A stretch of 64,000 nucleotides of DNA from contig NC_043003.1 of assembly GCF_006345805.1 (NCBI RefSeq), positions 2,046,001-2,110,000 on the forward strand, given 5' to 3'. Position 1 is the first letter of the stretch. Each line of letters starts with the position of its first letter. The DNA is from Octopus sinensis. Lineage: Eukaryota. Made by a program: the position numbers. Shown in pieces: positions 1 to 56,989 of the stretch.

Positions 1-2848
1 GTTAAACGATGCTGATAATGATGCTGGTGTATATACATACATACATATGTTCAAATTAATGAGTTATCATTTAAATCCTAATTAACGTGAAATGCTTTAA
101 ACGTTCATTTTGCTCTGTTCAAACAATGTTGATAATAATATTGACTAATTAACTTTTCTCCTCGTTATTTTAAAATAGTTTCTTTTGTTTTTAGCCCCCA
201 ATTAATTGACATTGCCAGTGCTGCCCAATCAAAAGGATCTCACAAAGCCATTATGGAGCTTCTCAATTTTGAAGGGGACCACACGGATTACCCAGAGCGC
301 TATCTCTTTACGTTAGCTTATGCGACCAAACCTGCCAAATTCATTCTGAATAATTTCTTGGTAAGGACGATGAAGCAATATCATATTTTCTTTTTATTTT
401 GTTTTTATCGTTGTTATCTAGATGTTATCAATGTGTGTATATATATATGTGCGTGTGTGTATATACAGACATACATACAGACAGAGGGGTTTCCACACGA
501 TTTCCATCTACCGAATTCACTTACAATGCATCATTTGGCTTGGTGAAGGTGCCACGTAATGGGAAAGAACTCAAAACCCTATGACTGCAAAGCAAACCTC
601 TTTACCACACAGCCATGTCATATATACATCCATAAACATACATATGTACACACACACACACACATCCTGGGATATGTAACACACTGCCTAAATACCAATC
701 TTGAGAAATTAGACTTTTCAAAACCAGAAAGGAGAAAGCTAATTTGAAGACTACAGATCCAATCCATCACTGGAACTGTAAAAATCTTTGAAACTTTCCT
801 GAAGTTTATCATTTAAATATATATGAGCATGTCTAGATATGTGGCTATATGCATGAGAATACATATATAAAACAAAACACACAAATCTGTGCATATACAT
901 ATATACATATTTACAAAAATACCCTGCTGTTGATGTTGAAATTCCAATGAAGGAGCCTTGAATCAAAGTTAGAAACTGGTTCTTTCTCTTTTGGCAAGAA
1001 ATCTTGAAATAAAACTGAACAATCACATACACACATACATACAAGCATGTATGCATACATACGTACGTACATACGTCCGTCTGTCCATCCATCCATCTAT
1101 GCTTGACCAAAGAAGACCTAAGGTCAAAATGACAATAACAACAACATAATTCTAAAATTGTTTTCACTGCTGGGCACCACATAAAAGGTGCCCAGTGCCA
1201 CTCTGTAAAGTGGTTGGCATTAAGAAGGGCATCGTGCCATACAAATCTTACCAAAACAGACAATTGGAACCGGGTACAGCTCTCCGGCTTGCCAGCTCCA
1301 GTCAAACCGTTCAACCCATGGAAAACAGATGCCAAACAATGATGATGATGATGATTATGATATTGAATTGTAATTCTTTTTTAATTCATCTTTATTTGAT
1401 AATAAATAATATATTTCATTATTGTCCATAAATTGTCAACAGATTCATATTTAAACTCAAAATGTTTAACTTTATTCCAGAAAATATATAAGAAAAAAAT
1501 AGCAAACAAGAATTTGAAAGAAAGCGTTGGTTTGACCCTTGGCGCTTTGATGTTCACATATTGTTTGGTACCGAGTCAATGTGAGGAAAATGTAAGTAAA
1601 TAAAGATGCTATTTATGTGGCAGATAAATGTCGTGGGTGAGTGGAGAGGCACAGGAAGGATTGGATGATGGTTAAGAAGGTTGCTTTTAAAACCTCTTGG
1701 CTTTGGGGTCCAGTCTCATTCTGTGGCACTTTGTTAATATTAATGTAGCCCTGGGCCAGCCAAAGCTTTGTGAAGCCCATCATGTGTGTGGGTGTGTTGC
1801 CCCCCCCCCCACTGCTTGACATCTAGGGTTGGTGTATTTACATCCCTGTAACTTAGCAGTTCGGCAAAAGACACCAATAGAATAAGTACCAGGTTTTATA
1901 AGTATAGGTAATGGGGTCAGTTCATTCAACCAAAAATTCTTGAAAGTGGTGCCCCAGCATGGCCAGTAAAAGACAGAAGAGTATCTGAAAGCAGTCAGCT
2001 GACAGAATTGTTAATGCATTGTGTAAAAGGCTTCGTGGTATTTCTTCTTCCAGCTTTGCTTTTCATTCTGTCAGGATTCATAGGTACCAGTCATGTACTG
2101 GGGCTATAGGATTGGCAACACATCAACGCAAAATTGATGGCTTTACTATCATCTCTGTTCTATTATTGATTGTTTTTTAATATTATATTATCTCATTTGT
2201 ATTTCTATCACTATTGGCAAAGAATTGTGTATTCTCTCTCTTTCTCCCCCCCCCTCTCCATATAAAGTCCTCTCTGGACTTTTTCCTCTTTCTGATTAAG
2301 AGCCATGCTCAAAACATCATTTCTACTCCTATTTTCTCATCTAAAACTTTCACTGAGTGTCCAGCTAATATATTCTATGTGTACATCCAATTGGCTTTGG
2401 TTGTCCTGTTTTTTAGTTTTGATTTGCATACACACACACACCCACACACACACACACACAGAGTAATGCCTCGATATAGGAGTTAATTTGTTCCCGGAGT
2501 TTGCTTGTAAAGCAAAGACTCATAAAGCAGAGCAACAATTTCCTGTAATATCAATGTTATAAATTGCAATTCATTTCCAGAAAAATATTTTACCTTTATA
2601 AGAACCATACCAAATCCGTTAGATTCACTTCAACATTTAAATTTAATTTGTCAAAATATTTTCGTCGCTTTCAGACCGCGACCTGTTCGCTGACAAAACA
2701 TCGTGCTGCAGCATGGATTTTTGTCAGTGAATAGGTCGCGGTCTCAAAGCAATGAAAATATTTTGACAAATTAAATTTAAATGTTGAAGTGAATCTAACG
2801 GATTTGGTATGTGTTTAAATGGCTTATAAACACCTTCTATGCTGCAAT

Positions 2849-2879
<31 letters not shown>

Positions 2880-54900: not shown

Positions 54901-56989
54901 TAAAGTCGTCTCAGACAACTTTTCAAAGGTGCCTCTCAGATTTAGTAAAATAGCATTATATAAAAGAAACCGTTTGTTTCGAAGCCATGACTCCAAATAT
55001 AACAATTCTTTCGAGTTTTGGCACAAAGCCATCAATTTTAAGGGGTGACGAACTGTCGATTACATCGAGTTGTTTTATCGACCCCGGAAAGGTGAAAAGC
55101 AAAGGATTTCAAGTTAGAACGTAAAGAGCTGGAAGAAACGCCGCTAAGCATTTTCTCCGGCGTGCTAACGAGTCTGCCAGCTAGTCGCCTTCATTCTGAA
55201 CATATGTTTCAAATTATGGCACAGGGTTAGTAATTTAATAGTAGAGTGTGTGTGTGGGGGGGGGTGAGTAGATTGCATTGACCCAAGTACATGACTGGTA
55301 CTATGTCAACCTTAGGGAGACGAAAAGCAAAGTTAACCCCGGCGGAAATTGAACTTAATCAGAAGAACCGGAAGGAGCGCAGCTCACCGCGTTGACCCCA
55401 AATATGATAATAACGTGGCAGTGTGATAAGGAACTTGCTTCCCAACCATACGGTTCCGTGTTCAGTCCCACTGCGTGGAACCTTGAGTGAGTGCTTTCTA
55501 CTATAGCCTTAGACAAACCAAAGCCTTAAGTGAATTTGGTAGACGGAAACTGAAAGAAGCCCGTCGTATATATCATACATATGTGTATGTGTATCTTTGT
55601 GTCTGTCTTACCACCATCGCTTGACAACCGATGCTGGTGTGTTTACGTCCCCGTAACCTAGCGGTTCGACAAAAGATACCGATGGAATAAGTACCAGGCC
55701 TACAAAGAATAAGTCCTGGAGGCGATTTCTTCGACTAAAATGCGGTGCTCCAGCATGGCCGCAGTCAAAATGACTGAAACAAGTAAAAGAATAAAAGAAT
55801 AATTGTTTTATAATATCCAGCTATTCAAGAACAATTCAAGAACAACACCAACATTCCGGACTTCTTATAATCGGATCCAGTTTCCACTAATGTTGAGGTA
55901 CCTGTATATAATTATTTAAATAAACTTTATATTTGTTTAATTTAGAGTGTGTTGACTAAGGTGACCGTCTTTGATTCGGAAAAGTCAGTAATCCGTAAAA
56001 TATTTGGAATCAAAGGTTCCAAAAAGTGATGTTGTACTTGTGTGTTTATCTCAAGGGACACACCAACACTGCCTGAAAAAATAAATGGGTACGCTGGAAG
56101 AAATATGTTCGAGGACCCTTCACGGTCCTTTAGTGACTTGTCTGAAGGGGTTGTTTGGATCGACAGCTACTCAAATGGTCTTTTACTGTTACTCCATTCC
56201 CTTCCAGGAGGCTTTGTAGGAATTTTGAATCCACTGGAAAGTTTAATGGCAAAATAAAATTCCAGGTCGATTTGAACTCAGAATCTTGAAGGTTACAACT
56301 AAAGGCTGCAGACATTTTAGCCCATGTTCCAACGATCCTATCAATCGATAGCCCTCAAATCACATCTTACAAAGAAGGCACACTATATAACGTGGTCCTA
56401 GGTATCAAGGATCACAACTGAAATTCCTTGATCCCTTGGGCATTTCTAATGATCGAACAGAACTATAAACGAAAATGTTCCATCGGTGACCATCCTGTCT
56501 TTTTCTGGATAATGATAGTATTGACCGTGTAATTTCATTTTTTTAAAGACAAAGTCTGGTACTTACTCTACATAGCGTTCTTTTTTGTCGAACCGCTAAG
56601 TCACAGGGACGTAAACACCTGTTGTCAAGCGGGGGAGGGATGCAAACATAAGCACATATGCATATCTACATTTATGTGTGTGTGTGTGTATTGTGTATGT
56701 GTGTGTGTATTGTGTATGTGTGTGTGCGTGTGTGTGTGTATTGTGTGCGTGTGTGTATGTATGTATGTATGTATATCGTTGTTTTTAGAAACTGGTGAAG
56801 GCCAGTTGATAGGATTACCCTGGGTTTCTCCCTCCATATTTTAAAGACACCATGGGCCAACAGGTCTTAGGGTCTGAAGATACGCCATAAAGATACCCTT
56901 TATGACGAGAAACTCAGGGTAACCGATAAACCGGCCTTCACCAGTAATTAATAAATAACTACACACACATAGACACACACACACACACA

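What the first reader, a model, noticed from the sequence alone, without database searches (positions are those of the whole stretch)
2606..56945. Dense, multi-family set of hammerhead-ribozyme mini-elements targeting (TA)n/(TG)n microsatellites
Seen: about 10 type I hammerhead-like folds (2647-, 2720+, 3320+, 3944+, 30101-, 30148+, 30395-, 34160+, 43642-, 56871+). They come from at least six sequence-unrelated short elements. Nearly all share one architecture: ribozyme, a 30-170-nt tail, then a dinucleotide microsatellite, often with an inverted partial copy upstream. One (34160) belongs to a GIY-YIG Penelope-like element. Established: Penelope-like elements carry minimal type I hammerheads in their pLTRs, often in inverted or tandem arrangement, and metazoan retrozymes are non-autonomous hammerhead repeats. 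Inference: this is a diverse cephalopod system of microsatellite-targeting, self-cleaving PLE/retrozyme derivatives that standard annotation would miss.
Basis: partly seen in the sequence, partly recalled or inferred. Interest (0 to 1): 0.88.

Follow-up and report, generated by a model that had tools for sequence, protein, structure and literature searches.

The report
Penelope-type hammerhead relics in microsatellites
The window holds about seven short, unrelated insertions that each carry a minimal hammerhead-ribozyme motif and sit inside dinucleotide microsatellites, which is the published signature of truncated Penelope-like retroelements rather than a new system.

Summary
The motif enrichment is real, but the biology is already described. 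Rfam finds no hammerhead, either in the whole window or in six short slices. A strict canonical descriptor finds none.

With an intact core and a palindromic helix III it gives 6 loci, 4 of them independent. Dinucleotide shuffles give 0.087 on average (0 of 300 reach 4), and the reversed sequence gives 0. Sites 2647- and 2720+ need 2-3 core changes and are not supported.

All 7 independent units have a dinucleotide microsatellite 19-171 nt to the 3' side; a random position does so with P=0.16. Three of the 7 carry an inverted partial copy.

ORF 32354-33154 is a 5'-truncated Hydra-clade Penelope-like element. Solo minimal hammerheads, tails, inverted twins and (TA)n targeting are all published for these elements (PMC4209133, PMC8557442, PMC11167929).

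Not tested here: self-cleavage, covariation within families, and the cephalopod origin.

The parts
3320..3407 (+). Hammerhead-like motif of unit U1 (3179-3439). Core CUGAAGA/GAAA is intact, helix I has 5 bp, and helix III is the perfect palindrome ACAAUUGU with GUA at the cleavage site. Helix II carries an unusually long 59-nt insert. A 32-nt tail leads to (TA)n at 3440-3490.
   Evidence: parse; microsatellites; no Rfam hammerhead
3944..4031 (+). Identical second copy of the U1 motif. It lies inside the 100%-identical tandem duplication (2849-3467 = 3473-4091, period 624).
6768..6808 (+). Core CUGAGGA/GAAA is intact. There is one extra U before a 3-bp helix II, helix III is the palindrome ACUUUAAGU with GUA, and helix I has only 3 bp. 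A 29-nt tail leads to (TA)n at 6838-6859. Directly upstream lies a copy of a SINE-like repeat whose homology stops at 6759.
   Evidence: (no Rfam hammerhead)
30085..30284 (.). Unit U3. A 65+65-nt palindrome (30085-30149 / 30150-30214, 95% complementary, no spacer) carries one motif on each strand (30148-30198 + and 30101-30151 -). Core CUGAUGA/GAAA is intact, helix I has 6 bp, and helix III is 4 bp plus a loop containing CUAG, with GUA. A further 70 nt (30215-30284) lies on the right side only. (TA)n flanks both sides (30033-30082, 30285-30316).
   Evidence: (Rfam sees only miRNA-like hairpin hits and Hammerhead_3 at 17.5 bits)
30395..30436 (-). Motif of unit U4 (30317-30600). The core reads CUGCUGA (one substitution), or CUGAAGA preceded by 3 extra nt. 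Helix II is poor. Helix III ACCGUUCGGU is self-complementary in 4 of 5 pairs, with GUA. Helix I has 5 bp. A 79-nt tail leads to (TA)n at 30285-30316. Taken alone, this locus could be a chance match.
34166..34203 (+). Motif of unit U5 (34021-34307), bounded by (TA)n at 34007-34020 and 34308-34343. The core reads CCGAUGA (U4 to C). Helix II has 2 bp plus a GCAA loop, closed by an A/A opposition. Helix III is the palindrome ACUCAGAGU with GUA. It shares 23 nt (91%) with the 56871 motif.
43472..43788 (-). Unit U6. Outer arms 43472-43572 and 43688-43788 are 101 nt and 99% complementary. The 115-nt centre holds the motif at 43642-43686(-). Its core reads UUGACGA (C3 to U), helix I has 6 bp, and helix III is the palindrome ACCUGGGU with GUC. 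I read this as a minus-strand copy 43687 to 43472 plus a head-to-head inverted copy of its last 101 nt. (TA)n lies at 43460-43471 and 43830-43958.
56789..56960 (+). Unit U7. The motif lies at 56871-56924. Core CUGAAGA/GAAA is intact. Helix II is long and irregular, about 10 bp. Helix III is the palindrome ACUCAGGGU with GUA. Helix I has 3 bp. An inverted partial copy at 56791-56830 (88% to 56907-56945) includes the 3' half of the ribozyme (56816-56828 -). The flanks are (TG)n-rich on the left and (CA)n(TA)n on the right.
32354..33154 (+). 5'-truncated coding remnant of a Hydra-clade Penelope-like element. It aligns to residues 448-711 of a 713-aa relative (55% identity). It carries the CxCX5C linker and a VVY...YTG (GIY-YIG-type) block with no cysteines between the two halves. 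The stop codon is at 33152-33154.
   Evidence: Hydra features from PMC8557442 section 11
32328..32407 (.). Palindromic 5' junction of the Penelope-like element remnant (39-nt arms, 97% complementary, 2 nt apart), directly after (TA)n at 32306-32327.
2606..2811 (.). It is hammerhead-like in shape only: the first core box has 2-3 of its 6 fixed positions changed. I do not count it as a hammerhead.

Best explanation
The window carries about seven independent short insertions (78-360 bp). They are the 3'-terminal parts of Penelope-like retroelements (PLEs), or short non-autonomous elements mobilised by them. Each retains the minimal type I hammerhead motif that PLEs carry near the point where reverse transcription starts.

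Inferred mechanism, taken from the published PLE model and not tested here:
1. A PLE transcript from a tandem or pLTR arrangement is bound by its RT/GIY-YIG protein.
2. The endonuclease nicks AT-rich DNA, here (TA)n or (TG)n.
3. Reverse transcription starts inside the RNA, a few dozen to about 100 nt downstream of the hammerhead. Every insertion therefore ends as hammerhead, then tail, then target.
4. [quoted passage not shown]
5. The hammerhead has a very short palindromic helix III. It would cleave, if at all, as a dimer between tandem copies or with protein help.

In the solo and partly mutated copies seen here it is most likely a fossil rather than an active ribozyme.

Shown here: the motif enrichment, the microsatellite embedding, the inverted twins and one Hydra-clade coding remnant. 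Inferred: the link of each unit to a PLE, the order of events and any cleavage.
For: 1. Motif enrichment.
- Intact core plus palindromic helix III: 6 loci (4 independent) against 0.087 in 300 dinucleotide shuffles (0 of 300 reach 4), 0.027 in 1-kb block shuffles, and 0 in the reversed sequence.
- Up to 1 core mismatch: 10 loci against 1.66.

2. Features the descriptors did not demand.
- All 9 credible motif copies have C15.2-G16.2 and a GUA or GUC cleavage triplet.
- When no palindrome was required, 10 of 13 hits still had a palindromic helix III. In shuffles the corresponding counts were 1.66 of 5.38.
- A palindromic 15.2-16.2/loop 3 is a hallmark the authors list for metazoan PLE hammerheads (PMC4209133).

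3. Microsatellites. All 7 independent units have a dinucleotide block 19-171 nt to the 3' side (random position P=0.16 for <=170 nt). The 6 units measured on the 5' side (U2 was not measured) have one 66-179 nt away.

4. Inverted copies. Head-to-head inverted partial copies occur in 3 of 7 units and at the 5' end of the coding remnant.

5. Coding remnant. ORF 32354-33154 matches 570-740-aa proteins that carry RMRWK, ADKT, YRDDGL and CxCX5C. These are the features given for the Hydra clade, which is also described as under 3 kb, hammerhead-bearing and inserted into (TA)n (PMC8557442 section 11).

6. Published parallels.
- Most minimal hammerheads are solo, 'probably related to truncated PLEs', and pairs occur on opposite strands 100-700 bp apart (PMC4209133).
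- Heavy 5' truncation, an adjacent inverted copy and a 30-40-bp tail are described (PMC8557442 section 6).
- In an Anolis PLE the hammerhead cut site lies 26 bp into the ORF and reverse transcription starts 111-118 bp into it. DNA cleavage prefers AT-rich sites (PMC11167929). This predicts a hammerhead-to-end distance of the size seen here.
Against: - No Rfam hammerhead model matches any locus, even in 91-381-nt slices.
- No locus passes a strict canonical descriptor.
- The G10.1-C11.1 pair, which PMC4209133 calls highly conserved, is present in 0 of 7 units. In 4 units helix II is closed by a U/U or A/A opposition.
- 3 of 7 units have a core substitution. With about 1.7 chance hits expected at that stringency, one or two of 30395-, 43642- and 1402- may be accidents.
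- Only one PLE coding remnant exists in the window, and no hammerhead box follows it within 0.88 kb. No unit is therefore physically tied to a PLE body.
- Each family is single-copy here, so no within-family covariation could be counted.
- Unit U6, with 101-nt arms at 99% identity, could equally be a MITE.
- My descriptors were tuned after seeing the sites.
- The GIY-YIG assignment of the ORF is not confirmed: the ORF itself has no Pfam hit, its relatives have only sub-threshold ones, and the Foldseek hits are non-significant.
Confidence: 0.74

Rival explanations
1. The units are foldback or MITE-type DNA-transposon derivatives that insert at TA. The hammerhead-like boxes would be incidental, or carried along passively.
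For: - Four structures are long inverted repeats: 2606-2811 (91%), 30085-30214 (95%), 43472-43572/43688-43788 (99%) and 2882-2940/2952-3010 (93%).
- Two of these four (2606-2811 and 2882-3010) have no credible hammerhead.
- (TA)n flanks are compatible with TA-targeting transposons (recalled, not tested).
Against: - It does not explain the 50-fold or greater excess of intact hammerhead cores with palindromic helix III.
- It does not explain why 4 of 7 units (U1, U2, U4, U5) have no inverted repeat at all.
- In U3 the arms meet with no spacer and one side runs 70 nt further. This fits a twin retro-insertion better than terminal repeats.
Confidence: 0.1
2. They are non-LTR retrozymes in the strict sense: short tandem repeats whose hammerheads excise monomers that circularise and spread as circRNA.
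For: - Two identical hammerhead copies lie 624 nt apart on the same strand (3320+ and 3944+).
- Animal retrozymes are reported to be PLE-derived (preprint 10.64898/2026.07.22.740005: abstract, section 14) and to occur in molluscs (PMC7229834, passages).
Against: - 6 of 7 units are solo.
- The single tandem pair is a 100%-identical 619-bp duplication. It spans several microsatellite-bounded pieces, including an unrelated foldback, so it looks like a segmental duplication or an assembly effect.
- The published monomers are about 300 bp and occur as dimers to large multimers (PMC7229834).
Confidence: 0.07
3. The matches are chance products of an AT-rich, palindrome-rich sequence.
For: - Rfam finds nothing.
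- The descriptors were relaxed post hoc.
- About 1.7 hits are expected by chance with one core mismatch allowed.
- 1402- and 51239- look like such hits: AU-only helices, no nearby microsatellite, U at position 17.
Against: - 0 of 300 shuffles reach the 4 independent intact-core loci, and the reversed sequence, which keeps all palindromes, gives 0.
- The same loci are all microsatellite-embedded. Using the random-position P=0.16, seven of seven comes to about 3e-6 (my arithmetic).
- Two of the loci share a 23-nt ribozyme segment.
Confidence: 0.04

Closest known systems
Minimal type I hammerheads of metazoan Penelope-like elements (Cervera & De la Pena 2014, PMC4209133)
   Same: - Type I topology with CUGANGA/GAAA boxes.
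- Short helix I (3-6 bp).
- Very short helix III with a palindromic 15.2-16.2/loop 3.
- Mostly solo copies, sometimes paired on opposite strands.
- Extreme sequence diversity between families.
   Different: - G10.1-C11.1 is absent in 0 of 7 units; U/U or A/A oppositions close helix II in 4 of them.
- Helix II is short (2-4 bp) in most units, against the 6-8 bp reported.
- One unit has a 59-nt helix II insert.
- Location inside a pLTR is not shown.
Hydra clade of C-terminal-endonuclease Penelope-like elements (Craig et al. 2021, PMC8557442)
   Same: [quoted passage not shown]
- Its full-length relatives have RWK and DKT motifs and are about 700 aa, on contigs of 2.1-3.9 kb.
- It is inserted next to (TA)n.
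   Different: - The window copy lacks the whole RT (5'-truncated at about residue 448).
- No hammerhead is recognisable in the 0.88 kb after its stop codon.
- No phylogenetic placement was done.
Poseidon PLE of Anolis carolinensis, in vitro model (Frangieh et al. 2024, PMC11167929)
   Same: The order hammerhead, then a spacer of roughly 85-90 nt, then the reverse-transcription start or 'tail', then an AT-rich target matches the observed hammerhead, 19-171-nt tail, (TA)n layout.
   Different: It is a different clade and host, and nothing was assayed here. In that system hammerhead mutants did not impair insertion, so the motif's role is still open.
Animal non-LTR retrozymes (Cervera & De la Pena 2020, PMC7229834; Li et al. 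2026 preprint)
   Same: Type I hammerhead in short non-coding repeats, with a proposed PLE origin.
   Different: Retrozymes are tandem arrays of monomers of about 300 bp. Here 6 of 7 units are solo, and the one pair is a 624-bp perfect duplication.

Membership tests
Hammerhead ribozyme, Rfam models (Hammerhead_1 and clan CL00010) | Score at or above the family gathering threshold | tested here: not met
   0 matches at gathering score. No hammerhead row among 103 at E<=10. In six short slices the only row is Hammerhead_3 at 17.5 bits against 48.5.
Hammerhead ribozyme (catalytic core) | Conserved C3 U4 G5 A6 N7 G8 A9, G12 A13 A14, A15.1-U16.1, and H17 not G | tested here: inconclusive
   Intact in 4 of 7 independent units (U1, U2, U3, U7). 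One substitution in 3 of 7 (30395-: A6C or a 3-nt insert; 34166+: U4C; 43642-: C3U).
Hammerhead ribozyme | Self-cleavage after position 17 | not testable with these tools
   No assay or RNA data were available. Published minimal PLE hammerheads cleave poorly and only as dimers or with protein (PMC4209133; PMC11167929).
Metazoan PLE minimal hammerhead (PMC4209133) | Palindromic 15.2-16.2 and loop 3 | tested here: met
   7 of 7 units, with 4/4, 4/4, 6/8, 4/5, 4/4, 4/4 and 4/4 self-complementary pairs. When this was not required, 10 of 13 hits had it, against about 31% of shuffle hits.
Metazoan PLE minimal hammerhead (PMC4209133) | Highly conserved G10.1-C11.1 pair | tested here: not met
   0 of 7 units. 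Helix II begins with U/U (U1, U3, U6), A/A (U5), or A-U after an extra U (U2).
Metazoan PLE minimal hammerhead (PMC4209133) | [quoted passage not shown] | tested here: inconclusive
   Clean in U2. In U1, U3, U5 and U6 there is an unpaired base on both sides of the stem. U7 has a bulge one pair further in.
Metazoan PLE minimal hammerhead (PMC4209133) | Consensus families with compensatory changes within a genome | not testable with these tools
   Each unit is single-copy in the 64-kb window, and no eukaryotic genome collection was open.
Penelope-like element, Hydra clade (PMC8557442 section 11) | CxCX5C linker upstream of a C-terminal GIY-YIG domain that lacks the CCHH motif | tested here: met
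   The window ORF has C-N-C, then 5 residues, then C, followed by VVY...YTG with no cysteine between the two halves, and ends 100 aa later.
Penelope-like element, Hydra clade | RT with RWK and DKT motifs | tested here: inconclusive
   Present in the 9 full-length relatives aligned (RMRWK, ADKT, YRDDGL). The window copy is truncated before this region.
Penelope-like element, Hydra clade | GIY-YIG fold or family assignment by profile | tested here: inconclusive
   - Pfam: 0 hits for the window ORF.
- GIY-YIG at E=0.0057, below cut-off, in 2 of 10 aligned members.
- Atlas neighbour clusters carry PF01541 in 23-60% of members.
- AlphaFold model: pLDDT 81, with a beta-beta-alpha-alpha-beta-alpha core.
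- Foldseek best E=0.84. The GIY-YIG enzyme Hpy188I appears only at rank 17, E=3.1.
- PDB profile search: no relevant hit.
Penelope-like element, Hydra clade | Canonical hammerhead in the element's own non-coding end | tested here: not met
   No CUGANGA or GAAAC box on the + strand in 33140-34040.
Penelope-like element (insertion architecture, PMC8557442 section 6) | 5' truncation, adjacent inverted 5'-truncated copy, tail, microsatellite target | tested here: met
   - Units have 0-164 nt upstream of the motif.
- Inverted copies occur in 3 of 7 units and at the ORF remnant.
- Tails are 19-171 nt, with microsatellites on the 3' side in 7 of 7.
Non-LTR retrozyme | Short tandem arrays of hammerhead-bearing monomers | tested here: not met
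   Only one pair exists, at 624-bp period and 100% identical, spanning unrelated pieces. 6 of 7 units are solo.
MITE / foldback DNA transposon | Terminal inverted repeats at both ends with a target-site duplication | tested here: inconclusive
   Terminal arms are present in U6 and U7. Target duplications cannot be read inside microsatellites. 4 of 7 units have no inverted repeat.

The most novel reading that the evidence does not exclude
The units would not be random truncations. They would be full-length members of many families of ultra-short (about 80-360 bp) non-autonomous retroelements. In these, a minimal hammerhead with an unusual non-Watson-Crick closure of helix II (U/U or A/A in place of G10.1-C11.1), together with a short tail, is the only module needed for mobilisation by Penelope-like enzymes into dinucleotide microsatellites. 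At about one per 9 kb, as seen here, such elements would number in the hundreds of thousands per gigabase-scale genome. They would then be a major unannotated repeat class tied to that genome's microsatellite landscape.
Probability: 0.2. Interest if true: 0.55.

Novelty: new member of a known kind. Interest (0 to 1): 0.3.

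Why it matters
The result shows that Rfam-style annotation is blind to a real and fairly dense class of ribozyme-bearing retroelement relics. It gives seven worked examples, with boundaries, of how Penelope-like insertions look inside microsatellites.

A genome-wide follow-up could ask two things. First, is the hammerhead plus tail the minimal mobilisation module? 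Second, is the non-canonical helix II closure a lineage-specific variant? As it stands, the finding confirms published biology and opens no new question.

Tried and rejected
Rfam at three levels found no hammerhead: gathering score, E<=10 on the whole window, and six slices.

A strict canonical descriptor gave 0 hits.

A scan for ribozyme 3' halves alone (GAAAC, palindrome, GU[AC]) gave 14 hits against 5.9 in shuffles. Ten of the 14 were the loci already known, so no large hidden set of half-relics turned up.

MFE folds of the isolated motifs reproduce the hammerhead shape only for 30148+, and in part for 3320+. I did not treat this as evidence either way, because minimal hammerheads are expected to be unstable as monomers.

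The GIY-YIG assignment could not be confirmed.
- Pfam on the window ORF gave nothing.
- Pfam on relatives gave only sub-threshold GIY-YIG.
- The PDB profile search gave irrelevant hits.
- The AlphaFold model plus Foldseek gave no significant match.

tblastn of all 69 fetched relatives against the window found only the one remnant. TRF missed the 624-bp duplication because of its period limit; an offset comparison found it.

Other ORFs are ordinary retroelement fragments.
- 11580-12110(-) matches RVT_1 at E=1e-25.
- 16109-16711(-) has weak RVT_1 and PHD hits.
- 15560-16105(-) gave one sub-threshold Pfam row, which I take as chance.

Steps not done:
- The organism was not identified by any search.
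- Covariation within families was not tested.
- Genome contigs was not scanned, because it holds only bacteria and archaea.
- Supplements were closed. Supplementary file S2 of PMC8557442 (Hydra hammerheads) and the supplementary figures of PMC4209133 could show whether U/U or A/A closures are already known.

On prior print: in the search for 'hammerhead ribozyme', 'cephalopod' and 'Penelope', 15 of 67 papers were listed. Only PMC8557442 held both of the first two terms. I claim nothing beyond that about what is in print.

What I read of each paper:
- PMC8557442: passages and sections 6 and 11.
- PMC4209133: parts 1-2 of 4.
- PMC11167929: passages.
- 10.64898/2026.07.22.740005: abstract, outline and section 14.
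- PMC7229834: passages.
- PMC8967140: passages.

Full report
OBSERVATION. Rfam 15 gives no match at gathering score anywhere in the window. At E<=10 none of the 103 rows is a hammerhead family; all are miRNA-like or similar hits on microsatellites and palindromes. Six slices of 91-381 nt centred on the candidates give only one hammerhead row. That row is Hammerhead_3 at 17.5 bits against a gathering score of 48.5, lying across the 30100-30199 palindrome. By curated models, then, nothing is there.

My own descriptor for a type I hammerhead was: helix I, CUGANGA, helix II, GAAA, helix III closed by A15.1-U16.1, and position 17 not G. In strict form it finds 0 hits. I then relaxed it to allow one core mismatch and a mismatched first pair of helix II. 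A version modelled on the published minimal PLE hammerhead adds 56871+ and a new locus, 6768+. Sites 2647- and 2720+ fit only with 2-3 changes in the six fixed positions of the first core box, and I reject them.

IS IT MORE THAN CHANCE? Yes.
- The compact relaxed descriptor gives 6 loci. In 200 dinucleotide-preserving shuffles the mean is 0.20 and the maximum 3. The reversed sequence, which keeps every palindrome, gives 0.
- Requiring a self-complementary helix III segment and allowing one core mismatch gives 10 loci against 1.66 (maximum 6, 150 shuffles); reversed sequence 1.
- Allowing no core mismatch gives 6 loci against 0.087 (maximum 2, 300 shuffles), 0.027 in 1-kb block shuffles, and 0 reversed.

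Two pairs must be collapsed: the duplicate 3320/3944 and the two arms of one palindrome at 30101/30148. That leaves 4 independent intact-core units (U1 3320, U2 6768, U3 30148, U7 56871) and 3 with one core substitution (U4 30395-, U5 34166+, U6 43642-). About 1.7 chance hits are expected at the looser setting. So 1402- and 51239- are probably accidents: they have AU-only stems, U at position 17 and no nearby microsatellite. One of U4 or U6 might be an accident too. U5 is backed by a 23-nt match to the ribozyme of U7. I relaxed the descriptors after seeing the sites, which inflates the ratios somewhat.

Two shared features were not demanded by the descriptors. All nine credible copies have C15.2-G16.2 and a GUA or GUC triplet. 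When no palindrome was required, 10 of 13 hits still had one, against about 31% of shuffle hits.

ANATOMY. Each unit is short and bounded by dinucleotide repeats.
- U1 (3179-3439): 141 nt, then the motif, then a 32-nt tail, between (TA)6 and (TA)n. It lies inside a 619-bp stretch repeated once with 100% identity.
- U2 (about 6760-6837): the motif starts 8 nt after a SINE-like repeat ends. It is followed by a 29-nt tail and (TA)n.
- U3 (30085-30284): two 65-nt arms meet with no spacer, each carrying a motif. Another 70 nt lies on one side only. (TA)n flanks both sides.
- U4 (30317-30600): the motif is on the minus strand, with a 79-nt tail to (TA)n.
- U5 (34021-34307): (TA)n on both sides.
- U6 (43472-43788): 101-nt arms at 99% identity around a 115-nt centre. 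The motif's 5' end abuts the inner end of one arm. I read this as a 216-nt minus-strand copy, head to head with an inverted copy of its last 101 nt.
- U7 (56789-56960): an inverted partial copy includes the 3' half of the ribozyme. Both outer ends are the same terminus.

Outside the ribozyme the units are unrelated.

MICROSATELLITES. The window has 62 dinucleotide blocks covering 2.8% of its bases. A random position has one within 170 nt on its 3' side with P=0.16. All 7 units have one at 19-171 nt. By my arithmetic from that P, this comes to roughly 3e-6. The six units measured on the 5' side also have one, at 66-179 nt (U2). The association is therefore real.

LINK TO PENELOPE-LIKE ELEMENTS. 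ORF 32213-33154 has no Pfam hit. It does match 51 proteins of 173-524 aa and 18 of 570-740 aa. Language-model neighbours carry HTH_animal, and GIY-YIG in 23-60% of members. The long relatives show RMRWK, ADKT, YRDDGL and CxCX5C. The window copy retains CxCX5C and a VVY...YTG block with no internal cysteines. These are the features that Craig et al. give for the Hydra clade: RWK, DKT in place of DKG, CxCX5C, no CCHH, under 3 kb, canonical hammerheads, and insertions into (TA)n, with Mollusca among the hosts (PMC8557442 section 11). tblastn shows that the window copy covers residues 448-711 only, and that it is the sole such remnant. It begins right after (TA)n with a 39-nt snap-back palindrome. 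Profile and fold tests of the GIY-YIG assignment stayed inconclusive. The motif is 1 kb past the stop codon, beyond a (TA)n block, and no core box lies between.

COMPARISON WITH THE LITERATURE.
- Cervera and De la Pena (PMC4209133) described minimal type I hammerheads in metazoan PLEs. They have a short helix I, a helix III reduced to a palindrome, and extreme diversity. Most occur as solo motifs 'probably related to truncated PLEs', some as pairs on opposite strands. Activity in vitro is low and only as dimers.
- Craig et al. describe heavy 5' truncation, an adjacent inverted 5'-truncated copy, a 30-40-bp tail and microsatellite bias.
- Frangieh et al. (PMC11167929) show AT-rich DNA cleavage. 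The hammerhead cut site is 26 bp into the ORF, and reverse transcription starts 111-118 bp into it. This places the hammerhead a few dozen to about 100 nt from the 3' end of every insertion, as seen here.
- A 2026 preprint links animal retrozymes to PLE termini.

The differences are as follows. The G10.1-C11.1 pair called highly conserved in PMC4209133 is present in 0 of 7 units. U/U or A/A oppositions close helix II in 4 of them. Helix II is mostly short.

MECHANISM AND RIVALS. The best reading (confidence 0.74) is that these are PLE 3'-terminal fragments, or PLE-dependent short elements, inserted by target-primed reverse transcription into microsatellites, with the hammerhead now largely a fossil. 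The rivals are foldback/MITE elements (0.10), true retrozymes (0.07) and chance (0.04); evidence for and against each is set out in their own sections.

LIMITS. The following could not be tested: cleavage, covariation within families, the tie of each unit to a PLE body, and the host organism. No eukaryotic genome collection was open, and supplements were closed.

VERDICT. This is a real but ordinary feature: new members of a known kind.

Noticed in passing
window 6563-6760, 15007-15371, 31725-32001, 21535-21777(-), 29531-29695(-), 1178-1307(-), 63838-64000, 13716-13814: A SINE-like repeat family with at least 8 copies at 73-85% identity, some with internal sub-repeats. One copy ends 8 nt before the 6768 hammerhead. 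Another lies just upstream of the PLE remnant.
   Followed up: partly
window 2849-3467 and 3473-4091: A 619-bp stretch repeated in tandem with 100% identity (period 624), bounded by (TA)n. It could be a very recent duplication, one insertion event, or an assembly artefact.
   Followed up: partly
window 2882-3010 and 3506-3634: A 59+59-nt foldback (93% complementary, 11-nt loop) between (TA)n and a T-run, with no hammerhead boxes. Rfam reports it as a sub-threshold mir-1756-like hairpin.
   Followed up: no
window 11580-12110 (-): An ORF fragment with a clear reverse-transcriptase domain (RVT_1, E=1.2e-25, YADD motif). It is not matched by the Hydra-type proteins and is presumably a LINE.
   Followed up: no
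window 16109-16711 (-): An ORF with weak RVT_1 and PHD-finger hits (both below cut-off), probably another retroelement remnant.
   Followed up: no
window 56675-56775 and 56960-57044: The flanks of unit U7 are reverse complements in motif: (TG)n on the left and (CA)n then (TA)n on the right. They are not the same motif split in two. The repeat may therefore belong to each inverted copy's 3' end (compare the AC-rich reverse-transcription start in PMC11167929) rather than to a pre-existing target.
   Followed up: no
window 31640-31720, 32172-32220, 30540-30580: Tetranucleotide arrays, (GATA)n/(CTAT)n and (CAGA)n, abut the PLE remnant and unit U4, in addition to the dinucleotide blocks.
   Followed up: no
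window 51245-51347, 51540-51642(-), 61419-61516, 61578-61688, 61820-61908(-): Another short repeat family (70-76% identity, 5 copies). The probably accidental 51239- motif overlaps the start of one copy.
   Followed up: no
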